Shown one piece after another: positions 4,602-15,985 of a DNA stretch of 20,000 bases (positions are counted from its first letter, which is position 1; each line of letters opens with the position of its first letter). The notes below the pieces were generated by a model. It saw nothing but the letters and a program-made list of their open reading frames with translations. It had not been told where the DNA came from and did not search any database. Location: IMG/VR virus record IMGVR_UViG_3300025141_000074; one strand, written 5' to 3'. Made by a program: the position numbers and the translations under genes. Origin of the DNA: an uncultured virus (IMG/VR IMGVR_UViG_3300025141_000074) (lineage: Duplodnaviria > Heunggongvirae > Uroviricota > Caudoviricetes).

Positions 4602-5119
4602 GTTGGTTATGTGCAGTGTTATTAATATGTGTACCTTTCAAGCCAGAAATGGATTACACCAACAATGAGGAATTCATTGAGGATATTACAGCGTGTACGT
4701 TGCATTTGAATTCAATGGAAGAGGATCACAACAGGATTCCAGTAAATTTAGTGATAGCACAAGCCATTCATGAATCGGAATGGGGACATTCCAGGTTTGC
4801 AACAATTGGTAACAATTTGTTAGGGATCCGCACTTTTGACTCAGCCGATGACCAAATGAAGCCGCTTAATATACCTAATGCTAGCTGGGGGCTTAGGATC
4901 TTTGAGACTAAATGCGAATCCATATCTTACTATATTGATTTACTTAATAATAACCATCATTATAGAGACTTTAGAGAGGAGCGATTAACCCAGTATATCA
5001 GCGACATAGTGGACCTTGAATCTTTGGCTAGGACACTTGCAATTTATGCCGAAGATGTATATTATACGCAAAAAATCACCAAAACATTAAAACAATTAGA
5101 GGCCTATGACAGAGATTAG
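4598..5119 (+). CDS. GH73/Bax-like glucosaminidase (peptidoglycan hydrolase) with N-terminal hydrophobic signal
   Basis: AQAIHESEWG.SRFA..GNNLLGIR and C-terminal YAEDVYY motifs; MSWLCAVLLICVPF N-terminus. Confidence 0.82.
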   Translation: MSWLCAVLLICVPFKPEMDYTNNEEFIEDITACTLHLNSMEEDHNRIPVNLVIAQAIHESEWGHSRFATIGNNLLGIRTFDSADDQMKPLNIPNASWGLRIFETKCESISYYIDLLNNNHHYRDFREERLTQYISDIVDLESLARTLAIYAEDVYYTQKITKTLKQLEAYDRD

Positions 5120-6215
5120 AAAACCCGGGTACCGTGAACAAGGAAAGAAACGTGTAGCAGCGAACAAGCCTATTGCGGGAGTTAAGCCAGGTTTTGCTAT
5201 TAACCCGGAGCAGATGGAATATGAAAGAAGAAAACTTTTGGAAGAAATGTCTACAAAACTTACGCCTAATAGAAAGACGCTTAATACAATGGCAGCAGTT
5301 GCGGCAACACAAGAGCCAGAGTATTTTGATGAAGAAGGAAAGAAAAGAGAGCCAACGATGCGTGTATTATCACTCGGGGCAGGGGTTCAGTCATCCTGTT
5401 TGGCACTCATGGCGCAAGAAGGACTGACAAAACACAAACCAGATTACATGATATTTGCCGATACTGGATGGGAACCTTCCTTCGTGTATGAGCATGTAGA
5501 ATACTTAAAGAAAGCAATAACGATCTGTCCACTCATTACTGTAGAACGTGGTAATATCCGTGAGGATCTTATCCGCGCAGCGAACCCCATTAAAGGGTCA
5601 AATGAGGAGCATAAATCTTTCGCCGGACGTGTACCAAATCCACCACTATTTGCTGCACGTCCTGGTGGAAAGGTTGGAATGTTATACCGTCAATGCACCC
5701 ATGACTATAAAGTTATTCCTATTCAAAAAAAGATGAGGGAATTACTTGGCATAAAACCAAGACACCGTGTTAAAAAAGGACAGTTAGTAGAACAATGGAT
5801 TGGTATATCCACCGATGAAGCAATGCGCATGAAGAAGGCGCGGATGCCATGGCTTACATCAAGATGGCCATTAATTGAAATGAAAATGTCACGTGCTGAT
5901 TGCCTGCAATGGTACCGTGATATAAAAAAACACCCTATGCCTGGCAAATCGTCGTGCATAGGGTGCCCTTACCACCATAATGATCAGTGGAAAAACATGC
6001 AGAAGAATTATCCAAAGGACTGGGATGATGCGTGTGAAGTTGATGACAAGATCAGGCATGGATTAAAGAACACACCAGCAGAACTATTTCTTCATAAGTC
6101 AGCGAAGCCGCTTAGAAGTATAAATTTCCTTGAGCCAAAGAAACAACAAAGTTTATTTGGAGAAACGTTTGATGAAGAATTTTCAGATGAATGTGAGGGA
6201 CTTTGTGGAGTATGA
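5106..6215 (+). CDS. PP-loop (adenine nucleotide alpha-hydrolase / PAPS-reductase-like) Cys-rich phage enzyme
   Basis: VLSLGAGVQSS PP-loop-like, IFADTGWE, RQCT..YK..PI, GISTDE..R, KSSCIGCPYH, C-terminal ECEGLCGV; about 80-aa N-terminal extension. Confidence 0.75.
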   Translation: MTEIRKPGYREQGKKRVAANKPIAGVKPGFAINPEQMEYERRKLLEEMSTKLTPNRKTLNTMAAVAATQEPEYFDEEGKKREPTMRVLSLGAGVQSSCLALMAQEGLTKHKPDYMIFADTGWEPSFVYEHVEYLKKAITICPLITVERGNIREDLIRAANPIKGSNEEHKSFAGRVPNPPLFAARPGGKVGMLYRQCTHDYKVIPIQKKMRELLGIKPRHRVKKGQLVEQWIGISTDEAMRMKKARMPWLTSRWPLIEMKMSRADCLQWYRDIKKHPMPGKSSCIGCPYHHNDQWKNMQKNYPKDWDDACEVDDKIRHGLKNTPAELFLHKSAKPLRSINFLEPKKQQSLFGETFDEEFSDECEGLCGV

Positions 6216-6472: not shown

Positions 6473-7089
6473 TAATAGCGAAGATTCCAATTCAGGATAC
6501 ACGCCTGTTCTACAAGAACTATGATAATTATTCCAATCTCAACAACTTGTTGATGACGGAGATAGAGAAGGAAAAGAAAAAGGATCCTAAAGGATTAGAG
6601 GCAACCAATCCAGGTTGCTGGAGAAGTATGTTCAAGTACCAGTGTGAAAAGGAACTGATGAAACCAATTGGAATTATTCTTTCCGCCTGGACGGATCACT
6701 ACTTGCCAGGAAAGGTCGTGGATGCACAAATAACCTACTGGACAAATGTTAACGAGCCAGGTGGGGCCAACATCTTTCACACTCACTACCGTGCGGATGC
6801 GGACCTATCCGGTGTCTATTACGTGAAGGGACACGGAACCGGAGTCATTCGTTTTGCGACGCATGAGCAGATGTACAAGATGATTCCTGTACACATGCCA
6901 CACGCCAACATGATTGGACACAATCCAACGGACGGTGACATACTGTGCTTTCCATCCTATATATTGCATGATGTGGTACCTAATCCATCGAAGGGACAGC
7001 GAATTTCAATTGCGTTCAACGTGAAATTTGCCATCAAGGAAAAGGATAATGTGGTTCCCTTGACTAAAAAAGTGGAAGAGGGCAAATGA
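6445..7089 (+). CDS. 2OG-Fe(II) oxygenase (TIGR02466-like)
   Basis: W.NVN..GG.N..HTH, LSGVYYV, FPSYILH.V.PN, RISIAFN. Confidence 0.9.
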   Translation: MAQEKDGKVVIAKIPIQDTRLFYKNYDNYSNLNNLLMTEIEKEKKKDPKGLEATNPGCWRSMFKYQCEKELMKPIGIILSAWTDHYLPGKVVDAQITYWTNVNEPGGANIFHTHYRADADLSGVYYVKGHGTGVIRFATHEQMYKMIPVHMPHANMIGHNPTDGDILCFPSYILHDVVPNPSKGQRISIAFNVKFAIKEKDNVVPLTKKVEEGK

Positions 7090-7325
7090 TGGACGTTTGG
7101 GACCCAGGAGAGGAAACGACGGTATTCCGCCAAATAAAAAAGCTCATATCTCGCTCCTATCGGGGTTTAAAAGGTTGGGTGGTGTGTTTGTACCCGGGTA
7201 ATTTAGTGTTTTTGGCCAAAGACTGGTTCTATTCACTATGTGAGCATTATGGTGGGGCCATCAGCTGCTGGGCATGGCAAAAGCGTTGGAGTAAACAAAA
7301 TAGAAAGAGATACAAGCATGGTTAA
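7086..7325 (+). CDS. Hypothetical phage protein, Trp-rich C-terminus
   Basis: ATGA overlap with the upstream gene; SCWAWQKRW. Confidence 0.65.
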   Translation: MMDVWDPGEETTVFRQIKKLISRSYRGLKGWVVCLYPGNLVFLAKDWFYSLCEHYGGAISCWAWQKRWSKQNRKRYKHG

Positions 7326-7635
7326 AATGGAATGGAAGCAAGAAGACTTAGAGCTTGCTGGTGAACTAATTAAGAATCATACAGCAACTGAAGTTGGAAA
7401 AATTTTTAACAAATCTAAAAACGCTATCCTTGGTGTTCTTTATCGAGAGAAAATAAAAAATGGTTATGTGCCAGCTCCTGATTCTCCATATTCAAAAGCA
7501 CGGATGAGAAATAGATTCAAGAGTGATCCGGCATTGGGTGAAATGAAATGCTACATATGTTCAACGACTTTTACCAGGTCCGGACGATTTGATCGCTTCT
7601 GTTATGAATGTAGAAGGACGGGACGAGTTGCGTGA
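7318..7635 (+). CDS. gcrA: GcrA-like N-terminal HTH fused to a CxxC-CxxC zinc finger
   Basis: MEWKQEDLE...TATEVGKIFNKSKNAILGVLYR resembles the GcrA N-terminus (W-T...SASQIA...SRNAVIGK.HR); C-terminal CYIC...FCYEC. Confidence 0.72.
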   Translation: MVKMEWKQEDLELAGELIKNHTATEVGKIFNKSKNAILGVLYREKIKNGYVPAPDSPYSKARMRNRFKSDPALGEMKCYICSTTFTRSGRFDRFCYECRRTGRVA

Positions 7636-8033
7636 TAGAAAGGAAGTTAGATAAATATGTACAAGTACTTAACAACATTGATGACGCTCAAGATAAATTT
7701 GTTTGGATTATGGATTTTGGAAAAAATTCCAAGCCAATGGAAGACGAAAACAGGACTAGATATTTTGAAGTTCCAGGCTGTCAATCACAGACGTGGTTGG
7801 TACCGCATTTTATTGATGATAAAATATATTTTACTGCTGATTCAGCTGCACTTATATCTAAGGGCATGGTCTGTATCATTGCGGATGTGTACAGTGGATC
7901 TACGGCCCAGGACATAAATGATTTTGATCAGAGAGAATTTGAAAAAATGAATCTTAATACATTATTAACACCAGGTAGAAATAATGGTGTTAATAGTATG
8001 TTAAAAAAAATTAAATATTATGCTACAGAATAA
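7632..8033 (+). CDS. sufE: SufE-family sulfur acceptor protein
   Basis: VPGCQSQTWL with the conserved persulfide Cys, ADSAALISKG, LTPGRNNG. Confidence 0.92.
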   Translation: MIERKLDKYVQVLNNIDDAQDKFVWIMDFGKNSKPMEDENRTRYFEVPGCQSQTWLVPHFIDDKIYFTADSAALISKGMVCIIADVYSGSTAQDINDFDQREFEKMNLNTLLTPGRNNGVNSMLKKIKYYATE

Positions 8034-8039
8034 ATCAAT

Positions 8040-8135
8040 ATGCTTACATGGTTGCTTAGAGCTTATATTATATGGTCTATCTGTTTAGATGCTAGTATAA
8101 TTACAGGACTTTTATATTATTTCTTTATTCGTTAA
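8040..8135 (+). CDS. 31-aa membrane peptide (not in ORF track)
   Basis: MLTWLLRAYIIWSICLDASIITGLLYYFFIR; its stop overlaps the stop of the convergent gene. Confidence 0.55.
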   Translation: MLTWLLRAYIIWSICLDASIITGLLYYFFIR

Positions 8136-8437
8136 TCCCATTTAGCTTTAGCACGAAGTGACCATCTTTCAAACGCTGCTGCATCTATATCTTTTTTAAT
8201 TAATTTAGCACCAGCTGGTACTTCATTATAGAGCGCCATTACTTCACCATCTTCTATATGTACAATACCAGGACCACAAAAAGCATCTTTGTCATATCCT
8301 GTATTTTTCTTTTTAAGTAATCGTACTTCTTTCATACATTTAGATAATGACTCCATAGGAATATATTGTGTCATTTGAGTTTCTTGGTCATTCATATTAC
8401 CAAACATAAACATTAAAATTACACTAATTACTTCCAT
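8132..8437 (-). CDS. Hypothetical exported protein with Cys pair
   Basis: Hydrophobic N-terminus, SKC...AFC. Confidence 0.75.
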   Translation of the reverse strand: MEVISVILMFMFGNMNDQETQMTQYIPMESLSKCMKEVRLLKKKNTGYDKDAFCGPGIVHIEDGEVMALYNEVPAGAKLIKKDIDAAAFERWSLRAKAKWD

Positions 8438-8831
8438 TTGCTTCCCTCAATTTATCTTTTAATTTCTCCACGTCATTAAGCAAGCGTTCTATATCATGCT
8501 GTGCCCTCTTTATATTTACGGAATTACTCATCATTGACTCCATATCTTCCATCATGGATTCTAATTGAGAACTAAGAAATTCTATAAGGAGGTCCTGCTG
8601 AGCATCCGCGGGTAGAGCACCTAATTCACCACGTGGCCATTTTATTCTAAATTCTGTGTTTGCGGTGAGATCGGCTTCCATAAGCGTACTTCGCGTCTCA
8701 ACATTGTTAAGTCTTTCTTGTATTCCGAAAAAGGCGTAGACGCCAATTCCGACTGCTGCGAGTATTGATAAAAGGTTACGCATAGGCATAGAAATAGCAG
8801 TCTTATCACTTACATCCATCCTGTCAGTCAT
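8424..8831 (-). CDS. Membrane-anchored coiled-coil protein
   Basis: TM segment LLSILAAVGIGVYAFFGI followed by heptad-rich region. Confidence 0.8.
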   Translation of the reverse strand: MTDRMDVSDKTAISMPMRNLLSILAAVGIGVYAFFGIQERLNNVETRSTLMEADLTANTEFRIKWPRGELGALPADAQQDLLIEFLSSQLESMMEDMESMMSNSVNIKRAQHDIERLLNDVEKLKDKLREANGSN

Positions 8832-9176
8832 TTAGTCTCCGTAGGAGTAGGAGCCACCCTTGGTTTGATTCTGTTGCATCATATCAGTTGAATCATTTAA
8901 GAGATTAAACAGCTGCTTGTGCTGGTCCATGATCTCCTTGTCTTTCTTATTTCCCTGTCTTAAATCTTTCTTGATCTGCTTCACGTCCACCATGAGATTC
9001 TCCAGGTCTATTTTCATCTTGACCTGATTCTCGATGACGTCTTTCTTATTCTCTTCTTCAAAGCTCTTGTACATTTGATCCACCCGCGAATCGAGTTTGC
9101 TCACGTACCATATGACTGCCACGCCCTGAATCAGCACAAATGCCACAACGGCGAATGATATCTTAAGTCCATTCAT
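8832..9176 (-). CDS. Membrane-anchored coiled-coil protein
   Basis: TM segment ISFAVVAFVLIQGVAVIWYV followed by helical region. Confidence 0.8.
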   Translation of the reverse strand: MNGLKISFAVVAFVLIQGVAVIWYVSKLDSRVDQMYKSFEEENKKDVIENQVKMKIDLENLMVDVKQIKKDLRQGNKKDKEIMDQHKQLFNLLNDSTDMMQQNQTKGGSYSYGD

Positions 9177-9221
9177 CTAATCATCCTATCACAATCAGCG
9201 CCAACAGTAAAATGATATATC

Positions 9222-9455
9222 TCATGCCCCAATGGGCTTAGGCATTCCTGTGATAGGGAATGAGTCAAAAGGTATACAAAAAGCCTCCGTTTTAAGGGAA
9301 AGCTTGTATTCCGGTGGTTTTGCCGCATATGCTTCCCTGTAACCATCGCGTGCCACTACACACTGCTCTTCCGTTGGGTAGATAAGTGCGTTGTATTTAA
9401 CGGATGGTTGATTAGGGGAAGACAATAGCATTACCAGTAGCCATATCTTAACCAT
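9222..9455 (-). CDS. Hypothetical exported protein with Cys pair
   Basis: MVKIWLLVMLLS, EEQC...AFC; same architecture as 8132..8437. Confidence 0.75.
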   Translation of the reverse strand: MVKIWLLVMLLSSPNQPSVKYNALIYPTEEQCVVARDGYREAYAAKPPEYKLSLKTEAFCIPFDSFPITGMPKPIGA

Positions 9456-9542
9456 TTATTTTCCTCGTAAATATGTTTTATGAGGTTGATATTTTAACCA
9501 TTTTCTGAATTTATACCAGATATTTCTGATTCTTCGTGCCAT
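9456..9542 (-). CDS. 28-aa basic/aromatic peptide
   Basis: MARRIRNIWYKFRKWLKYQPHKTYLRGK with AGGA before the ATG; abuts the next gene. Confidence 0.6.
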   Translation of the reverse strand: MARRIRNIWYKFRKWLKYQPHKTYLRGK

Positions 9543-9623
9543 TGTTGTCCTATTAAAAAGGGGACCCTCCCGCAACGAATGCGCGAAAAGAGTCCACCGA
9601 GATGAAATGAAGTTGAGAACTAT

Positions 9624-9652
9624 TATATACTTGACAAGTTGTTTCAACGCAA
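9624..9652 (-). promoter_or_regulatory. Candidate leftward sigma70 promoter for the inverted cluster
   Basis: TTGCGT-17bp-TATATA on the minus strand, with TATAAT overlapping at 9627-9622. Confidence 0.4.
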
Positions 9653-9711
9653 GAAATAACTTATTTTTTACTTGACACGGTTTTTGGCTGATTTCCGGGA
9701 TAATTATTTAC

Positions 9712-9740
9712 TTGATATATCCCATAATTTACTGTATAAT
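9712..9740 (+). promoter_or_regulatory. Rightward sigma70-type promoter
   Basis: TTGATA (9712-9717), 17-bp spacer, TATAAT (9735-9740); further TTGACA hexamers at 9631 and 9672. Confidence 0.8.
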
Positions 9741-9746
9741 ATGGGC

Positions 9747-9947
9747 AACAAAGAAAGAATAATATTTGCAAATATTATTTCCTTCTGGCTGAACAACAAG
9801 TGCAAAGTTGTAAAGCAATGGCTCCGGGGGATATGTCCAAATGGATGAAGGACTGGGGTTAGGTACTGAGTACCGTTATCATTTGAAAGGATGATTTGCC
9901 GGGAAAGGTTGGGGGTGCGTTCATCCAAGACCCTCGGAGGCTTTGTT
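9747..9947 (+). ncRNA. Putative structured leader RNA / ncRNA
   Basis: Nested stems 9822-9830/9931-9939, 9842-9849/9920-9927, GAAA-capped 9878-9895, loop-E-like AGUA/GAA, hairpin 9793-9811, 22-nt palindrome 9758-9779. Confidence 0.65.
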
Positions 9948-10214
9948 ATGAAATGGAATGAGATGTTAAAAGATATGTTAAGTTTAAAAAAGTTTGATGA
10001 ATGGCTGAACAAGTCACACAGGGGCCACCGAATCTCCTACTACAGGGGATTCATCTTTGCGCCGAATGAGCAGAAGCTATCACCCACGCTTGACTTCAAG
10101 CGCGTGGAAAAGCTAGCCAAGCACGTACGCAAAGCCTTCAACAACCACCTCGTTACACTGGTACAAAAGAAGCATGATAATTTTGATTATGAATACATTG
10201 CGGTGCGTCTATGA
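9948..10214 (+). CDS. Hypothetical phage protein
   Basis: GGAGG at 9936-9940 before ATG 9948; ISYYRGF...LVQKK...YEYIAVR. Confidence 0.75.
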   Translation: MKWNEMLKDMLSLKKFDEWLNKSHRGHRISYYRGFIFAPNEQKLSPTLDFKRVEKLAKHVRKAFNNHLVTLVQKKHDNFDYEYIAVRL

Positions 10215-10309
10215 TCTGGGCCATCATTTCATTTTTTATCATCCCCATTAAGATCGTCATTGCATTATGGATAGTATACCATCTTTACATGTGGGTATTG
10301 GGCATATGA
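10211..10309 (+). CDS. 32-aa membrane peptide (not in ORF track)
   Basis: MIWAIISFFIIPIKIVIALWIVYHLYMWVLGI; ATGA overlaps at both ends. Confidence 0.65.
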   Translation: MIWAIISFFIIPIKIVIALWIVYHLYMWVLGI

Positions 10310-10473
10310 GCACAGGATATAATCTAAACGGGGCTAACAGTTCCAGGCAGCCTCCACGAAGAGTGAAGGAGTTGGATAGCCAACGACATAATCCAATTTT
10401 CACCAAACCTACGTTTAAGAAAAGACACAATAGGAGTGGGAAGGTAAAATTTATACAAATAAGGAACACATGA
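10306..10473 (+). CDS. Small basic hypothetical protein
   Basis: ATGA-coupled to both neighbours. Confidence 0.55.
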   Translation: MSTGYNLNGANSSRQPPRRVKELDSQRHNPIFTKPTFKKRHNRSGKVKFIQIRNT

Positions 10474-10664
10474 GTTTATATAAGAGATTAATAAAAGAAA
10501 AAGACCGTCTTGGAAAAAAAGCACTGCGCTTTCCGCAGACGGACAAAGAGTTGCTCGACCGTAAACGATGGGAGAGAATTTATATAATTCTCACCCGCCG
10601 TTACGAATACGAAAGAGAGTCCTTTGAGAATGAACTTCGAGGATCACCGGAACACAATAGCTAG
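10470..10664 (+). CDS. Hypothetical protein
   Basis: AAGGA RBS, ATGA overlap. Confidence 0.65.
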   Translation: MSLYKRLIKEKDRLGKKALRFPQTDKELLDRKRWERIYIILTRRYEYERESFENELRGSPEHNS

Positions 10665-10672
10665 GAGGTAAC

Positions 10673-10831
10673 ATGGCTAAAACACTACTACAAAAAATCA
10701 AGGCACAGCTTGCTAAACTAGAGAAGCTGCACGAAAAGGAAAATGATGTTGTTGAAAAGATCAATGATATTATTGAGGAAGAAGAAAACAAGGATGAGGA
10801 AAATGATTTTGATTGGGAGGGTACAGATTAA
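10673..10831 (+). CDS. 52-aa coiled-coil protein with acidic tail (not in ORF track)
   Basis: Strong AGGAGGT RBS; MAKTLLQKIKAQLAKLEKLHEKENDVVEKINDIIEEEENKDEENDFDWEGTD. Confidence 0.75.
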   Translation: MAKTLLQKIKAQLAKLEKLHEKENDVVEKINDIIEEEENKDEENDFDWEGTD

Positions 10832-10899
10832 TGGACCCCGCAACATTCGCCCTTGTGTTCTTCGGAACGCTTTGGATAGTGGGCATGCTTGGTGATTAA
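10831..10899 (+). CDS. 22-aa hydrophobic peptide
   Basis: TAATG coupling, GGAGG upstream; MDPATFALVFFGTLWIVGMLGD. Confidence 0.5.
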   Translation: MDPATFALVFFGTLWIVGMLGD

Positions 10900-11035
10900 G
10901 ATTTCCAAGTATCCCGCAAAGGTTGGGTATGGCAAGCTTCATGGATTGTGGTATGAATACTGGAATGACATGAGCTGGCGTCCCACGCTTAAAACGAAAA
11001 TTATCTTGTTTTTTAAAAGAATAAGGAGAAAGTAG
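10892..11035 (+). CDS. 47-aa hypothetical protein
   Basis: GTG start overlapping the previous stop; fills the gap up to the next gene. Confidence 0.45.
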   Translation: MIKISKYPAKVGYGKLHGLWYEYWNDMSWRPTLKTKIILFFKRIRRK

Positions 11036-11038
11036 AAT

Positions 11039-11368
11039 ATGAATAATTACATGTCAAAAAACGAATTAGCTGAATCGCTTGGGATTAGTCTTGCAACGAT
11101 TAATCGCAAACTAAAAGAAATTCCTCATGTAAAAATGGGGGGTGTCCAACAAAGTAGGGTATTATTTGATCCTGAAAAGATTAAGAAATATCTTAAAAAA
11201 TTTGAAGTTAACCTACCCATGGATAAAAAAGATTCGGAACGTGATTTGAGTTGGGCACAAAATTTTTGGCCTTACCATGACAAAGAAGGCACGATAGTCT
11301 TTCTTAACGAAGTGAATCCAAATAACAAGCGTGATCAACAGCAATGGGGCAGAATTTTAGATGGTTGA
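11039..11368 (+). CDS. Excisionase/AlpA-like winged-HTH DNA-binding protein
   Basis: YMSKNELAESLGISLATINRKLKEIPHVKMGG...RVLFD; AAGGAG RBS. Confidence 0.8.
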   Translation: MNNYMSKNELAESLGISLATINRKLKEIPHVKMGGVQQSRVLFDPEKIKKYLKKFEVNLPMDKKDSERDLSWAQNFWPYHDKEGTIVFLNEVNPNNKRDQQQWGRILDG

Positions 11369-11549
11369 CACAACAAGATACAAAAGCGTAGCGATAAAGA
11401 TTCCCTACTATGACGCATTGGTGCGCATGGGGGAGAGCATGCACCGTGGGCCGGGACAAGAAATGATGCATTTAATTGAGAAGGAATCTGTCCAGAGAGG
11501 AATGAAAATAAGAAATGAAAGAATTAGAAAAAGTAAGAAAAGAGATTAA
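11361..11549 (+). CDS. Ribbon-helix-helix-like small DNA-binding protein
   Basis: YKSVAIK beta-strand followed by two helices. Confidence 0.55.
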   Translation: MVDTTRYKSVAIKIPYYDALVRMGESMHRGPGQEMMHLIEKESVQRGMKIRNERIRKSKKRD

Positions 11550-11790
11550 GGCTGTTCTTATAGAAGGGGAGCAGAACAATGAAGCATTCCACTGGCTTGT
11601 TGACAAGCTAGGGATGATTCGCATGTATGAGCAAGGGCTACCCATTCACATGGTTCTTGGAATCATTGATGAATGGATGGAGGATGTAGAGGAGCGAAAC
11701 CGTGTTAAAGCATTGGAAGGATTTGATGAAAGGCATATTCAAAAAACCTACGCAAGTGTACAAACAAGATGGGACGCACGCAACAACTAG
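11515..11790 (+). CDS. Hypothetical protein
   Basis: ORF in a tightly packed operon. Confidence 0.7.
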   Translation: MKELEKVRKEIKAVLIEGEQNNEAFHWLVDKLGMIRMYEQGLPIHMVLGIIDEWMEDVEERNRVKALEGFDERHIQKTYASVQTRWDARNN

Positions 11791-11791
11791 A

Positions 11792-12070
11792 ATGGATATT
11801 AATTCTGTTCCTATGGTGCGTATTCACTGGGTTGATGCCCGTGATACGGAAACTGGTTGGCTGGATATCAAGGATATCCTCAAGGCCCCACTTGCAAACT
11901 GCATGGAGGTTGGCTGGATGATGGTGAATAATGACGAGAAGGTCGTGATCATGCGCTCGTGGTGCAAGGACAAGGATGACAACAGCGGTGGTGGTGTAAC
12001 AGCTATACCCAGTGGTTGGGTAAAGAAAATAGAATATTTGAGTGTGGGACATGCAGACGTACGAAATTAA
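11792..12070 (+). CDS. Conserved hypothetical phage protein
   Basis: V.I.W.DA....GW...C..VGW...IP.GW...IE pattern, common in small phage proteins. Confidence 0.75.
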   Translation: MDINSVPMVRIHWVDARDTETGWLDIKDILKAPLANCMEVGWMMVNNDEKVVIMRSWCKDKDDNSGGGVTAIPSGWVKKIEYLSVGHADVRN

Positions 12071-12440
12071 CTTATGGCAAAATAAAAAGGTTATCGAGAA
12101 GGTAGTCAAGCAGTTTGAGGGTGATGAGAAGGTGCTGGAATTTATCAAGAACAATTTTGATAAGGATGAGGAATTACCTAGACTGGACCGCGAAAAAGGA
12201 TATCTTCGTCCTAAAAAGAGTGATATAATAATTACATGGTCAAAAGTAGCTACTTATGTTCGCAAAAATGCACCAAAGAGACTGGGTCTCAATGAGCAGG
12301 AAGAGGAGCTTAAGGATACATTGGATAAGTCAATTACCCAGGAGACTATTAATGAATGGGGTAAAAATGAGATGTTTAGGCAAGTAAGAAAGCATTATTG
12401 GGGTCACCCCAATGCAAAAGGACAAGAAGATATTAGATAA
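12051..12440 (+). CDS. Hypothetical protein
   Basis: ORF overlapping the upstream gene. Confidence 0.7.
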   Translation: MQTYEINLWQNKKVIEKVVKQFEGDEKVLEFIKNNFDKDEELPRLDREKGYLRPKKSDIIITWSKVATYVRKNAPKRLGLNEQEEELKDTLDKSITQETINEWGKNEMFRQVRKHYWGHPNAKGQEDIR

Positions 12441-12456
12441 GCGACTAGGATGGACG

Positions 12457-12684
12457 ATGAAAAAGAACACGAAGAAGGAAGGATTGACACCCAAGCAAAA
12501 ATGGGTGTTTGAGGCCATCAAGGACTTCATTCAACAGAATGGACATTCACCCTCTTATGAGGAGATCAAGCAGCTGATGGGGGTACGCTCCAAGAGTAAT
12601 GTGCATGCATATGTGCATAGATTAGCGACACGTGGATGGATAGGATTTGGAAATGGCAGAAATCGGTCAATTTACATTTTATAA
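12457..12684 (+). CDS. LexA-like DNA-binding domain only (no peptidase domain)
   Basis: LTPKQKWVFEAIKDFIQQNGHSPSYEEIKQLMGVRSKSNVHAYVHRLATRGWI...RSI. Confidence 0.88.
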   Translation: MKKNTKKEGLTPKQKWVFEAIKDFIQQNGHSPSYEEIKQLMGVRSKSNVHAYVHRLATRGWIGFGNGRNRSIYIL

Positions 12685-12747
12685 GGGGTCACCATAGTGA
12701 TATATTTGCTCAAAAGTTTTTTTTATTTACGTACCGGGGATGAAACT

Positions 12748-12941
12748 GGTGCCACAGTGACACATTTACTGATTAAGCTATATAAATCAATCATTTATTG
12801 TGTGGCACCTATGTGTCACTACTCTAGACGACGCAAGGCGCTTTTTTGTTTTTTACAAAACAAAATGAGTAAAAATATAACTATACCAGGGGTTTACAAG
12901 TGGTAGATGAACGATTGAAAGGTGCCACAAGTGGTGCCACA
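12748..12941. repeat. GTG(C/A)CACA repeat set flanking an IHF-consensus site
   Basis: GGTGCCACA 12748, 12921, 12933; inverted TGTGGCACC 12801; AGTGACACAT 12756 / ATGTGTCACT 12811; AATCAATCATTTA 12785-12797 fits WATCAANNNNTTR. Confidence 0.75.
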
Positions 12942-13577
12942 AATGTGGTCAAAAAGAGGCAATGGATTCCAGGTGAAAAGGGCCATGGACGCCCAGGAGT
13001 TCCTGGAAGTGGTGGAGCTAAACACCATCCACTCAGGGCTGATGGATTGACTGACAAGCAACAGATCTTTGTTAAGATATTTACAGAGAATGAAGGTAGG
13101 ATGACACCCACTGAATGTGCTAGGCAAGCTGGTTATGCTGAAGGATCGGCGAGTATAACTGCATCTGTTTTATTAAATGGTAAAAGATACCCTAAGGTGG
13201 TAGAAGCTATCCTCGCACGACGTGCTGAGATGGAAAAGACGCATGAGGTTAAACTAAATAAACATGTACAGGAATTGGCTAGGCTGCGTGAAAGGGCTCT
13301 TAATGAGAAGTCTTATTCTGCTGCTGTTAATGCTGAGCGCTTGCGAGGGCAAGCTGCGGGATTGTACATCGATAGAAAAGAAATTCGAACGGGTTCAATT
13401 GACAGTATGTCTAGAGAGGACGTTTTAAACAAGTTAAAGGAAATAGGATTAGATGGAAAATTTAAAAAGGAAGGCAATCAAACTGTCCTTTCGGTCGAAG
13501 AGAAATCCAGTAGCGATGGAGCTGAAGACATCACCGAAATACAAACAGAGGATAGTGAAAGACAAGACAAAGTATGA
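12900..13577 (+). CDS. terS: Terminase small subunit
   Basis: LTDKQQIFV...TECARQAGYA...AS.LL...P.V pattern of the Terminase_2 family; SAAVNAE..RG...GLY. Confidence 0.85.
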   Translation: MVDERLKGATSGATNVVKKRQWIPGEKGHGRPGVPGSGGAKHHPLRADGLTDKQQIFVKIFTENEGRMTPTECARQAGYAEGSASITASVLLNGKRYPKVVEAILARRAEMEKTHEVKLNKHVQELARLRERALNEKSYSAAVNAERLRGQAAGLYIDRKEIRTGSIDSMSREDVLNKLKEIGLDGKFKKEGNQTVLSVEEKSSSDGAEDITEIQTEDSERQDKV

Positions 13578-13981
13578 CCGTAAAACCGGAAACAAACTTT
13601 TGGAAGAGTTTAAAGACATTATTAGACGGTGGTGACTATATTGTTTCACGCCTTGAATCATATGTCACACCGGGTTTTCCCGATTGCATAATATTTCACA
13701 ATGTTACAGGATTCTTCACAGTTGAATTAAAGATAGTTCAACCTAATAATAAAATACACCTCTCTCCCTTCCAAATTTCCTGGAATTCACGTCATGCGAT
13801 AGCAGGAGCCCATTCTTACATCTTAGTTAACCTACCCCTCAAGGGTACGGTTAAACTGTTTCACGGGTGTAAAACAAAGGAACTAGGGCATAGCACCGTG
13901 GACCAAGTGCCCGGGTTATACGAGGGAAGGCTCGAGGACCTAGATTGGCTTAAACTCCCAAACTCCTGCAAAAACCCTTAA
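13574..13981 (+). CDS. PD-(D/E)xK nuclease (VRR-NUC / Holliday junction resolvase-like)
   Basis: E..FW, RLES..TPGFPD...FTVELK, LSPFQISW. Confidence 0.85.
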   Translation: MTVKPETNFWKSLKTLLDGGDYIVSRLESYVTPGFPDCIIFHNVTGFFTVELKIVQPNNKIHLSPFQISWNSRHAIAGAHSYILVNLPLKGTVKLFHGCKTKELGHSTVDQVPGLYEGRLEDLDWLKLPNSCKNP

Positions 13982-14163
13982 ACCTCACTATATGGGCCGT
14001 GGATCCTGTGGTCCGGGCGCCCGGCGCGCAGCTTCTTCCTGTCAAGTTCAAACTCCGAAACTCCATAGGGGAAGCCAAAATCCTTAAATGATAATACAGG
14101 GTCAGGATCCTGGATGCCCGGGGCGCAGCTGGAGTGCGTCAGGAAAAAAGTTCAAATGAGCTG

Positions 14164-14192
14164 TTGCATTGTGGATAACTTTATGTTATAAT
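14164..14192 (+). promoter_or_regulatory. sigma70 promoter with extended -10 and a DnaA box in the spacer
   Basis: TTGCAT-17bp-TATAAT with TG at 14184-14185; TGTGGATAA at 14170-14178. Confidence 0.82.
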
Positions 14193-14198
14193 AAGGGT

Positions 14199-14279
14199 AG
14201 AAATAGAGTATTTATAAGCGCAAGTATACTTGGTCTGTTTGTATGGTTAAAAGCCCGTACTCTATTTCTTATAAATAGA
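14199..14279 (+). ncRNA. Putative structured 5' leader
   Basis: 12-bp stem 14199-14210/14258-14269 enclosing palindrome CAAGTATACTTG (14221-14232) and hairpin GTATGG-TTAAAAGC-CCGTAC; alternative hairpin 14261-14279. Confidence 0.5.
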
Positions 14280-14280
14280 A

Positions 14281-14505
14281 ATGGAGCAAAATATGGTTGT
14301 AGATGATACAATAAGCCAAGCACTCAATAGGATTGCTGATGGCATAGAAGAAAGTAATGCATTATTAGATAGGATTGCGAATCATTATGATGGGGTTGTT
14401 CCCATTATGACACGCAATCAAAAGAGAGCTGAAGCGTTAGCCGAGGAGCAAGAGCAAACTTTTGCACAAGGTATAAAGAACATCTTTAGTCCTCAAGAGC
14501 ATTAA
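14281..14505 (+). CDS. Small acidic helical hypothetical protein
   Basis: 74-aa ORF downstream of a strong promoter; its stop codon runs into an AAACTCC doublet. Confidence 0.75.
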   Translation: MEQNMVVDDTISQALNRIADGIEESNALLDRIANHYDGVVPIMTRNQKRAEALAEEQEQTFAQGIKNIFSPQEH

Positions 14506-14760
14506 ACTCCTAAACTCCCATAGGTTATCTATAAGTAAAAATTGTGGATAACCTGTGGATAATTTGGGCACCGGGGGCGCTGCGCGCTGACGCAAACTCC
14601 CGTTAAAAAACATAAGGCTTTCTGCCGTTTTGTGCGAGCTTCATTGTTCCCACCGGGCGCGCCCGGGATTTCCGTGGAGCGATGAGCTTTGGAAAATAAG
14701 AATGGCTGATTTGCTTGTGTCCCGGGCCTTAAATAAATACGCCTGGACCCTGAATACCTG

Positions 14761-14789
14761 TTGACCTTCCAGGAAGCAGGTGGTAAAGA
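14761..14789 (+). promoter_or_regulatory. Candidate sigma70 promoter
   Basis: TTGACC-17bp-TAAAGA with extended TG; lacks the final T of the -10 element. Confidence 0.45.
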
Positions 14790-14828
14790 TGGTATTTAAA
14801 CGAAGAGATGGGAAGAAAGAGAAAGAAA

Positions 14829-14921
14829 ATGGCGCATTTAATAGGTATTTTAATACTCGGAACCGTGAAGGTTGCAGCTGGAGCTGCAGTCATTTGGATC
14901 CTCGTGCAGCTGCTGGGGTGA
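14829..14921 (+). CDS. 30-aa hydrophobic peptide (not in ORF track)
   Basis: MAHLIGILILGTVKVAAGAAVIWILVQLLG; purine-rich leader; possible in-frame start at 14808; followed by an AAACTCC doublet. Confidence 0.55.
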   Translation: MAHLIGILILGTVKVAAGAAVIWILVQLLG

Positions 14922-15061
14922 TGTAAACTCCCGTAAACTCCCTTAACCTCACTAAACTGCAAATGTTTGGTCTTTGGTTTCGGGCACCGGGCGCGCCCGG
15001 GTGGAGTGGCGATGGAGATGAGACTTGGTCAAAGTTATCCACAAGAAAAAGAAAGATTGGG

Positions 15062-15090
15062 TTGAGATGAATTACATTTGATGATATAAT
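15062..15090 (+). promoter_or_regulatory. sigma70 promoter with extended -10
   Basis: TTGAGA-17bp-TATAAT, TG at 15082-15083; DnaA box just upstream at 15035. Confidence 0.8.
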
Positions 15091-15094
15091 GATG

Positions 15095-15263
15095 ATATGT
15101 GTTGGTAGCCACACATATAAAAAAGGACTACCAGTCTAAGCTGAGGAGAACCCAGTGAACGCTTATGCGTACGGAAGTGTATAAGGGCTTCCATAAGCAA
15201 CATAGTTGCCAGACGCTAGACAAGATGAGGCAAGATAAACGGAGTTATTCGGCTCTTGCCTCA
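15095..15263 (+). ncRNA. Putative ~165-nt small RNA with a 5' pseudoknot
   Basis: Own promoter, no credible ORF; stems 15095-15102/15111-15118, pseudoknot 15103-15108/15128-15133, 15161-15166/15193-15198, 15173-15177/15188-15192, 15226-15235/15254-15263. Confidence 0.65.
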
Positions 15264-15395
15264 CAAACTCCCTTGCAAACTCCTATTCCAATCTAATTGC
15301 CCATTAATACGAATCAGTTCCCGGGCGCGCACAAACTCCCACAAACTCCTATTCCAATCTAATTGCCTATTAATACGAATCAGTTCCCGGGGGCG
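15262..15395 (+). repeat. Tandem duplication of a ~66-68 bp module
   Basis: 50-bp core 15276-15325 and 15342-15391 differ at one position. Confidence 0.95.
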
Positions 15396-15432
15396 CCTGT
15401 CTTCAGGCACGGCAGTTCAGATTATTAGGCAT

Positions 15433-15460
15433 AAAAAAAGGGCGAACATTGTTCGCCCTT
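15433..15460 (-). terminator. Intrinsic terminator (possibly bidirectional)
   Basis: AAGGGCGAAC-ATT-GTTCGCCCTT with an A-run on the left (U-tract on the minus strand), just downstream of ORF 15482..15769. Confidence 0.85.
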
Positions 15461-15481
15461 CTTATAACTATGTGGATAGGT

Positions 15482-15769
15482 TTACATAGTTAAACCCATT
15501 CTTTTCAAGATGTATCCAACATCACCTTGCAGTCTTTTAATCAAGTCAAGTCTTGCCTCCTTATCTTCTGCAACCCACTCAACGAGTGAGTTCATTAGTA
15601 CACCACTAATTAGTTTCCAATCCATACTGTCTTTTGCAGGAACTTTACTAATCAGTTGTTCCAAGTCTCCAATACTTGCTTGGTCTTTGGAGTATTCTAT
15701 TACTTCCTTCATTACAGGAGTAATATCAACGTTGTTGATTGATTTCGTAGTAGTTAAATCGTTTGGCAT
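15482..15769 (-). CDS. Hypothetical helical protein, stand-alone leftward gene
   Basis: 95 aa, GAAAGGA RBS, own terminator. Confidence 0.8.
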   Translation of the reverse strand: MPNDLTTTKSINNVDITPVMKEVIEYSKDQASIGDLEQLISKVPAKDSMDWKLISGVLMNSLVEWVAEDKEARLDLIKRLQGDVGYILKRMGLTM

Positions 15770-15908
15770 AATTACCTATCCTTTCTATTTCTAATTAATA
15801 GATATCATGCATCATCAACCATTGATATAGCTAAATGCAATTAGTTGTGGATAACTATTGTCAATAGCTAATAGTAGTAAGTTGTGGATAACCTGTGGAT
15901 AACTGCGC

Positions 15909-15985
15909 CCGGGCTCTTATTGCGGCTCACTCCGTTCGCCGCCCGGTCCAGACTCCCAAACTGCGAGGGGGGAACCCCCCTTTCG
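15909..15985. other. Pair of GC-rich DNA hairpins upstream of terL
   Basis: GCGGC-TCACTCCGTTC-GCCGC (15922-15942) and AGGGGGG-AA-CCCCCCT (15966-15981). Confidence 0.6.

What the first reader, a model, noticed from the sequence alone, without database searches (positions are those of the whole stretch)
9747..9947. ~200-nt highly structured leader RNA with loop-E motif whose closing stem sequesters the Shine-Dalgarno
Seen: directly after a consensus promoter (9712-9740) come nested helices CUCCGGGGG/CCCUCGGAG (9822-9830/9931-9939) and UGGAUGAA/UUCAUCCA (9842-9849/9920-9927). Inside is an arm ACU-G-AGUA-CCG...CGG-GAA-A-GGU (9865-9875/9900-9909) matching the sarcin-ricin/loop-E AGUA/GAA motif, capped by a GAAA tetraloop hairpin with G-U pairs (9878-9895). 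There is also a GCU-GA-ACAAC...GUUGU-AA-AGC hairpin (9788-9816). G-U pairs, a GNRA loop and loop E argue for RNA rather than DNA structure. The GGAGG RBS (9936-9940) of the first gene lies in the outer stem. Inference: an unassigned riboswitch-like or protein-binding leader, or a stable phage ncRNA, heading the early operon.
Basis: partly seen in the sequence, partly recalled or inferred. Interest (0 to 1): 0.78.

Follow-up and report, generated by a model that had tools for sequence, protein, structure and literature searches.

The report
Compact manA-type RNA of marine phages
This ocean phage carries a real, tightly folded 200-base RNA gene that is a slimmed-down relative of the known "manA" RNA, a family recently reported to build RNA-only cages in the test tube, and it does not look like an on/off switch for the gene behind it.

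Summary
Real, conserved RNA, but neither unassigned nor a Shine-Dalgarno switch. Window 9747-9947 (+), in a HTVC023P-like marine phage, has homologues in four kinds of phage gene context, including cultured Pelagibacter phage HTVC008M. Of 40 homologue loci scanned, 24 match Rfam manA (RF01745) over the whole model (25.9-40.9 bits, all under the 55.2 cut-off); the window itself does not. Loop E and the promoter are confirmed. The variant lacks manA's P5/P7, keeps the L3-L8 and L8-L9 pairings (intermolecular in a 2026 cryo-EM preprint on manA cages) and has a palindromic L1. GGAGG sits at ribosome-site distance in 1 of 66 homologues; close relatives lack the RNA or hold another element there. 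Best reading: a stable RNA of its own, made from a dedicated promoter, that probably self-assembles by loop-loop pairing; its target is inferred, not shown. Expression evidence is weak (two contigs). The scan noted other, mostly enlarged, manA variants on other DNA; I found no note of this compact one.

The parts
9712..9740 (+). sigma-70-type promoter TTGATA-17-TATAAT; predicted start at about 9747
   Evidence: 11 of 12; 33 of 65 homologues have a 9-of-12 or better site in the same 24-nt window, 18 at exactly the same offset, against 103 of 2423 control windows
9747..9947 (+). whole RNA, about 201 nt, compact manA-type motif; ends paired by P0 (9747-9753 with 9941-9947)
   Evidence: model R1 scores it 199.7 bits (by construction). 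P0 seen by eye and by script in many homologues with changed letters, not counted against a null
9757..9780 (+). P1 hairpin with palindromic loop UGCA (9767-9770); candidate two-fold self-kissing loop (inference)
   Evidence: 4-nt palindrome at the apex in 65 of 66; second parse 63 of 66, shuffled loops mean 27, max 43; L3 23 and L9 19 of 66. Mostly the same UGCA; CAUG, GAUC/UCGA and UAUA in a few lineages
9781..9785 (+). P2, 5' strand (pairs with 9936-9940)
   Evidence: 5 of 5 pairs change on both sides; 84.5% paired (a block of rows is misaligned by one column)
9786..9817 (+). P3: UG-GCUGAACA core motif (manA UGACUGAAUAA), lower stem 9788-9790/9814-9816, upper stem 9796-9800/9807-9811, loop L3 9801-9806
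   Evidence: 346 of 348 and 575 of 580 cells paired in 116 copies; Rfam consensus
9802..9806 (+). L3 strand of the L3-L8 pairing (GCAAA with UUUGC 9895-9899)
   Evidence: 330 of 330 cells, 5 of 5 pairs with two-sided change; all five pairs in 115 of 116; second-ranked column pair by mutual information
9819..9861 (+). P4 (9819-9827/9853-9861) enclosing a single hairpin, P6 (9834-9838/9843-9847); manA's P5 and P7 are absent
   Evidence: P4 94.3%, 9 of 9 two-sided; P6 98.5%, 3 of 5 two-sided
9865..9909 (+). P8 arm with loop E (AGUA 9869-9872 opposite GAA 9903-9905); its apical part supplies 9889-9894 (to L9) and 9895-9899 (to L3)
   Evidence: loop E as an AGUA/GAA motif is established knowledge (recalled), its 3D form is not tested here
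9911..9935 (+). P9 hairpin (9911-9915/9931-9935); loop strand UCAUCC 9921-9926 pairs with GGAUGA 9889-9894 (L8-L9)
   Evidence: P9 99.4% paired. L8-L9: 73.7% in the alignment (loops misalign); alignment-free, 4 or more Watson-Crick pairs in 97% of 66 own pairs against 32% of 4144 swapped pairs
9936..9940 (+). GGAGG = 3' strand of P2; resembles a ribosome site in this allele only
9948..10214 (+). first gene of the operon, 88 aa from the first ATG, no PHROG family; the start shared with relatives is probably 9963 or 9975
   Evidence: 10 of 23 related loci match from residue 10; relatives start at the M10 equivalent or the M6 equivalent (L008)

Best explanation
The stretch encodes a compact member of the manA RNA superfamily. 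It is transcribed from its own sigma-70-type promoter as the front of an early transcript, folds into a P2-closed multi-helix core whose ends pair (P0), and works as a stable RNA in its own right, not as a switch for the next gene. Its loops are built for loop-loop pairing: L3 and L9 both bind one continuous 11-nt strand of the P8 arm, and L1 is self-complementary. By analogy with the manA cryo-EM structures, at least some of these contacts most likely form between molecules and give a closed RNA oligomer; the likeliest use is a multivalent scaffold or decoy for a host or phage protein early in infection. Shown: conservation, fold, manA kinship, promoter, optional presence, no conserved ribosome-site control. 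Inferred: release from the transcript, oligomer, any partner or purpose.
For: Kinship: 9 of 20 and 15 of 20 homologue loci hit RF01745 over positions 1-192; the HTVC008M copy scores E 6.8e-6 in its whole genome, 0 of 14 control genomes ring; my model R1 finds 4 of 8 Rfam-confirmed manA copies at E<0.01 with filters off. Fold: 93.7% of 3083 cells paired, covariation 0.581 against 0.180 shuffled and at most 0.130 slid. Same long-range pairings visible in canonical manA rows (GGCAU/AUGCC changing to GGAAU/AUUCC; CUGUA/UACAG; PMC2864571 supplementary file 5; loci). Preprint 10.64898/2026.07.01.735769 reports L8-L9' and L3-L8' as intermolecular contacts in manA pentamers. Independence: fixed promoter offset; a second 12-of-12 promoter between RNA and next gene in L028 and L093, a T4 late-type motif there in 5 T4-like loci; empty or differently filled slot in close relatives; canonical manA flush between two tRNAs in S-CREM1. 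One metatranscriptome contig covers 9759-9915 with no mismatch and nothing else of 7000-13000 at that likeness; a contig of a relative spans 9747-9944.
Against: No copy reaches the Rfam cut-off and the window gives no manA hit at all (and its twin L289); with default filters R1 finds 1 of the 81 loci from the manA side, and background reaches 15.5 bits. The L5-L7' contact, used by both pentamers described in the preprint, cannot form here. Covariation cannot tell intra- from intermolecular pairs. The match of my loop numbers to the preprint's is made from the Rfam helix order; its supplement was closed. No terminator follows 9947, so in this phage the RNA is joined to mRNA unless processed. 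Expression rests on two low-depth contigs (5.3 and 2.5) that may be DNA. The L1 palindrome is mostly one conserved word (UGCA), with only a few switches.
Confidence: 0.55

Rival explanations
1. Cis-acting 5' leader without switching: the compact fold caps and stabilises a highly expressed early mRNA, or enhances its translation.
For: Copies lie at the head of a transcript, in sense with a following gene in 57 of 66; P0 would shield the 5' end; no terminator behind the window's copy; often in front of single-strand DNA binding protein genes (gp32 in T4-like, gp2.5-like in T7-like loci); Weinberg 2010 filed manA as cis-regulatory.
Against: Separate promoters between RNA and gene in several loci; relatives do without it; S-CREM1 manA lies between tRNAs; a simple hairpin would do for a cap, as in the L009-type element.
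Confidence: 0.2
2. Independent RNA that acts as a monomer: both long-range pairings are ordinary intramolecular pseudoknots that close a compact fold binding a protein or small molecule.
For: L3 and L9 pair with adjacent parts of one strand, as in a stacked double pseudoknot; P5/P7 are missing; the preprint lists monomer models for two manA variants.
Against: The palindromic L1 has no use in a monomer; all five manA variants named in the preprint's main text formed oligomers.
Confidence: 0.14
3. Riboswitch or protein-binding translational switch that hides the ribosome site.
For: In this allele GGAGG lies 7 nt before an ATG and is paired; two folds of similar energy exist; the core has invariant bases; manA was listed as a probable riboswitch candidate.
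Against: 1 of 66 has that spacing; both folds bury GGAGG, so there is no ON state among them; the alternative helices are not conserved; no common pathway downstream.
Confidence: 0.06
4. Ribozyme that cuts itself out of the transcript: the L3-L8 pairing docks the P3 internal loop on loop E, as two docked loops build the active site of hairpin and VS ribozymes (recalled analogy).
For: Invariant unpaired bases in two loops joined by a perfectly conserved pairing; no terminator or tRNA to supply the ends.
Against: No Rfam ribozyme family rang; the contigs run through the core; the preprint purified full-length manA transcripts.
Confidence: 0.05

Closest known systems
manA RNA motif (Rfam RF01745; Weinberg et al. 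2010, PMC2864571)
   Same: Order of helices P1, P2, P3, P4, P8, P9; UG-xCUGAA core and UAAG in P3; UUG-GGGU...AUCC in P9; about 190-200 nt; marine phages; L3-L8 and L8-L9 complementarity; some 2010 rows also have a single hairpin in P4 or an AGUA/GAA loop in P8; one locus from the manA-pattern scan also lies before a gp32-like start (L241).
   Different: All scored copies are under the cut-off; P5 and P7 with their GUGGUG/ACCA pairing are absent; loop E is fixed; L1 is UGCA or another palindrome rather than mostly GACG/GAUC; an extra end-pairing helix P0; found in Pelagibacter-type phages, no sugar-metabolism or photosynthesis gene follows, no tRNA nearby (0 of 60 loci). Four diagnostic strings of this subtype were not found in the manA rows of the 2010 alignment file (gaps can hide strings).
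manA RNA-only cages (Ren et al., bioRxiv 10.64898/2026.07.01.735769)
   Same: Family, size under about 200 nt, complementary L8-L9 and L3-L8 loops.
   Different: No L5/L7, so the pentamer interface common to both described sets is missing; how pentamers are joined is not stated in the main text; their construct sequences were not seen.
Retroviral self-kissing loops (palindromic dimer-initiation loops; GACG tetraloops; PMC516450)
   Same: A hairpin loop that is a palindrome (this variant) or GACG (canonical manA), both named as dimer-linking elements in that review.
   Different: No homology; analogy of mechanism only, untested for L1.
Loop E / sarcin-ricin motif (recalled)
   Same: AGUA opposite GAA between two helices.
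   Different: No conserved GNRA cap on top: the apex varies in length and sequence, so it is not a copy of the ribosomal loop.

Membership tests
manA RNA (RF01745) | Score at or above the gathering cut-off of 55.2 bits | tested here: not met
   Window: no hit. Homologues: 24 of 40 loci hit at 25.9-40.9 bits, none above
manA RNA (RF01745) | Significant full-length match to the model (homology) | tested here: met
   E 8.7e-8 to 2.4e-3, model positions 1-192, in 24 of 40 loci; HTVC008M E 6.8e-6, controls 0 of 14; reciprocal hits weak, 4 of 8
manA RNA (RF01745) | P1, P2, P3, P4, P8, P9 in order, with the CUGAA/UAAG core | tested here: met
   against the consensus printed
manA RNA (RF01745) | Three hairpins P5-P7 inside P4 with the GUGGUG/ACCA pairing | tested here: not met
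   One hairpin only in all 66 rows; a few rows of the 2010 alignment also lack them
manA RNA (RF01745) | L3-L8 and L8-L9 complementarity | tested here: met
   330 of 330 cells; 115 of 116; 97% against 32%
manA RNA (RF01745) | Position 5' of mannose/fructose, nucleotide, chaperone or photosynthesis genes | tested here: not met
   Following genes: unknown small proteins, gp32, gp2.5-like and others; 17 neighbouring proteins scanned, PHROGs only
manA RNA cages | RNA-only oligomer in Mg2+ through intermolecular kissing loops | not testable with these tools
   Needs SEC-MALS or cryo-EM; covariation does not separate intra- from intermolecular pairs
Translational riboswitch | Conserved expression platform overlapping the ribosome site | tested here: not met
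   1 of 66; alternative helices 53% and 62% paired
Translational riboswitch | Ligand binding with a change of fold | not testable with these tools
   No probing data
Self-cleaving ribozyme | Match to a known ribozyme family | tested here: not met
   No such Rfam hit

The most novel reading that the evidence does not exclude
A minimal manA RNA, shared among unrelated phage lineages of SAR11-type hosts as a swappable promoter-proximal cassette, builds an RNA-only particle of a new geometry inside infected cells without the L5-L7' contact, using L3-L8', L8-L9' and a two-fold L1-L1' kiss; the L3-L8 sequence (10 pair types among 66 copies) would act as a key that keeps RNAs of co-infecting phages from mixing.
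Probability: 0.25. Interest if true: 0.82.

Novelty: new variant of a known kind. Interest (0 to 1): 0.55.

Why it matters
The function of manA RNAs has been open since 2010, and the only new data show cages in vitro. This variant is missed by Rfam's cut-off, strips the family to the contacts that matter, and occurs in a cultured phage-host pair (HTVC008M on Pelagibacter HTCC1062, record 5017-5242), where a hypothetical CDS is annotated over it. Natural pairs with and without the cassette exist among close relatives. It predicts two things that can be tested at once: which loop pairings are intermolecular when P5/P7 are gone, and whether L1 is the two-fold contact that joins rings. It also argues against the standing riboswitch label for the family.

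Tried and rejected
Rfam on the window alone: nothing relevant. The window's assembly is not held; the nearest record G001 (8.5 kb fragment) does not cover the place. blastn against annotated phages found only HTVC008M and chance 26-nt hits (none in 69). HTVC023P, HTVC027P and DSL-LC04 carry no copy by R1 or RF01745. Cellular genomes: 2 pattern hits among 185,579 species; L266 is a true copy on a 9.8-kb contig with the same phage-type genes, L267 is chance; the pattern is exact, so more distant cellular copies are not excluded. tRNA link: 0 tRNAs in 60 loci. RNAalifold missed P1, P8 and both long-range pairings. Rows dropped before A1: 8 truncated, 30 duplicates, 2 chance matches (L042, L056), 26 over 93% identical. 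One search had helices 4-6 shifted by one column and was replaced; P3 in A1 is invariant because the search pattern fixed it, so it was retested; the PK1 figure picks its own best strand and is not used. The absence of cover over most of 7000-13000 proves nothing by itself. The RNA tree puts 11 T4-like copies in one clade and interleaves the other contexts (7 changes, minimum 3, shuffled 20.8); groups were assigned by me, 20 rows left ungrouped, no one-clade test, so transfer between lineages is suggested, not shown. No complex or protein-structure job was run: none bears on an RNA.

Full report
Setting. The window is part of a marine phage: helicase, family A DNA polymerase, endolysin, small and large terminase; the polymerase is 48-51% identical to those of Pelagibacter phage HTVC023P, phage 023Pt_psg01 and DSL-LC04. 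The finding lies at a divergence point between a leftward group of small genes and a rightward operon that begins at 9948.

Observation. All quoted strings are present and the promoter is one of the two best in the window. The sequence alone folds with z = -2.6 and has no relevant Rfam match.

Homologues. Relatives of the downstream ORF gave 23 loci. By eye some carry the RNA, L006 and L007 have the same promoter directly followed by the gene, and L009-L011, L014 and L021 hold an unrelated hairpin element instead. After dropping 8 truncated, 30 duplicate, 2 chance and 26 near-identical rows, 66 remained, median pairwise identity 56% (alignment A1). Two patterns anchored on loop E and P9 gave 50 viral and 119 metagenome stretches, 116 distinct and complete, partly overlapping A1. 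In all, 170 distinct core sequences are in my loci. One copy is in cultured Pelagibacter phage HTVC008M, upstream of gp32.

Fold. Mutual information and pair counts give P2 9781-9785/9936-9940, P3, P4 9819-9827/9853-9861 with one inner hairpin, P8 with loop E, P9 9911-9915/9931-9935, and two long-range pairings: L3 9802-9806 with 9895-9899, and L9 9921-9926 with 9889-9894. For 47 pairs, 93.7% of 3083 cells pair, 30 pairs change on both sides, covariation 0.581 against 0.180 in shuffles and 0.090-0.130 when slid (shuffles ignore relatedness, and the structure was derived from these rows). L3-L8 holds in 330 of 330 cells there and in 115 of 116 copies of the second set. L8-L9 is 73.7% in the alignment; without alignment 97% of own pairs against 32% of swapped pairs reach four Watson-Crick pairs. 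P1 ends in a 4-nt palindrome in 65 of 66 (63 of 66 by a second parse, shuffles mean 27).

Identity. Rfam on homologue loci hit manA over the full model in 9 of 20 and 15 of 20, 25.9-40.9 bits, cut-off 55.2; the window's twin did not hit. HTVC008M scores E 6.8e-6 genome-wide, controls 0 of 14. A model of my alignment finds 1 of 81 manA-side loci with default filters and 4 of 8 Rfam-confirmed manA copies at E<0.01 with filters off, background up to 15.5 bits. The helix order and core words agree with the Rfam consensus. In the 2010 alignment (PMC2864571; passages of the main text; supplementary file 5, parts 119, 120 and 126 only) I saw rows with a single hairpin in P4, rows with AGUA/GAA in P8, and the L3-L8 and L8-L9 complementarity with compensating changes. 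So this is a homologue that fails two defining features (score, P5/P7): a variant, not a listed member.

Not a ribosome-site switch. The P2 3' strand reads GGAGG in 12 of 66; only the window has a long ORF's ATG 12 nt from its start, 56 have it 18-181 nt away, 9 none in reach. Relatives start the protein at residue 6 or 10. In the window the two candidate folds are near equal in energy and both bury GGAGG. Neighbouring genes belong to four contexts: HTVC023P-like small genes, T4-like gp32, T7-like gp2.5 with primase-helicase, and polymerase with a Cas4-type exonuclease.

Own transcript start. A sigma-70-type site lies at a near-fixed offset in 33 of 65 copies (18 at exactly 47 nt before the core) against 103 of 2423 controls; several loci have a second promoter between RNA and gene. 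Canonical manA of cyanophage S-CREM1 lies flush between two tRNAs (PMC9964418, passages). The run search listed 2 runs with small shares; laid on 7000-13000, X1 has one contig at 9759-9915 without mismatch and one of a relative at 8639-8807, X2 one of a relative at 9747-9944 and a 38-nt piece at 8620-8657. These are low-depth contigs that may be DNA: a weak hint. No terminator follows 9947.

Mechanism. The preprint 10.64898/2026.07.01.735769 (whole main text read; supplement closed) reports manA pentamers, octamers, decamers and a 60-mer held by L5-L7' plus L8-L9' or L3-L8' and L6-P6' contacts. My loop numbers follow the Rfam helix order and may not match theirs exactly. This variant keeps L3-L8 and L8-L9, lacks L5/L7, and has a self-complementary L1; canonical L1 is mostly GACG or GAUC, and both GACG loops and palindromes are named as RNA dimer links in retroviruses (PMC516450, passages). 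I infer a stable RNA that oligomerises and serves as scaffold or decoy (0.55); leader (0.20), monomer (0.14), switch (0.06) and ribozyme (0.05) are the rivals. No partner is identified.

Novelty. Searches found no paper on this subtype or on a manA-like RNA in Pelagibacter phages; the library lacks most subscription journals, and large candidate-RNA catalogues in supplements were not checked. PMC7779021 and 10.1101/2020.02.04.933952 (passages) only note that manA's structure was revised; 10.64898/2026.10.21.760802 has no mention in its main text. Earlier notes of this scan describe enlarged or double manA RNAs and a partner RNA on other DNA (seen after my own assignment, not tested); look-ups by sequence and by the words of this variant returned nothing. 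Verdict: new variant of a known kind, interest 0.55.

Noticed in passing
L009-L011, L014, L021, L272 (same promoter slot as window 9747): A different structured element, a long hairpin GGUAGGUCAAU...GGUUGGCCUACC with variable inner hairpins and a small 5' hairpin, replaces the manA-type RNA; 6 viral hits, no Rfam match at E<=1.
   Followed up: partly
L001:2081-2501: A near-identical phage contig lacks the promoter and the 5' two-thirds of the RNA (joins the equivalents of about 9680 and 9881); deletion or assembly error.
   Followed up: no
window 13950-15964: Gene-poor region with seven TTATCCACA/TGTGGATAA words (DnaA-box-like, label recalled), AAACTCC and CCCGGG repeats and a 55-nt direct repeat at 15276/15342; possible origin or genome-end region.
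   Followed up: no
window 9622-9717: Three ACTTGACA/ACTTGATA words at 41- and 40-nt spacing upstream of and in the promoter; possible tandem promoters or operator sites.
   Followed up: no
L144:2956-3126 (HTVC008M record 4993-5163): Annotated hypothetical CDS AGE60342 overlaps the RNA (record 5017-5242) and is probably not a gene.
   Followed up: partly
L097:711-1025: A tmRNA gene called by ARAGORN about 450 nt upstream of the RNA in a T4-like contig.
   Followed up: no
A1 rows L004, L008, L019, L039, L076, L113, L119: The same P4 module occurs in copies that differ elsewhere, suggesting recombination between modules of the RNA.
   Followed up: no
window 15432-15466: Strong inverted repeat with A/T runs on both sides, like a two-way terminator.
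   Followed up: no
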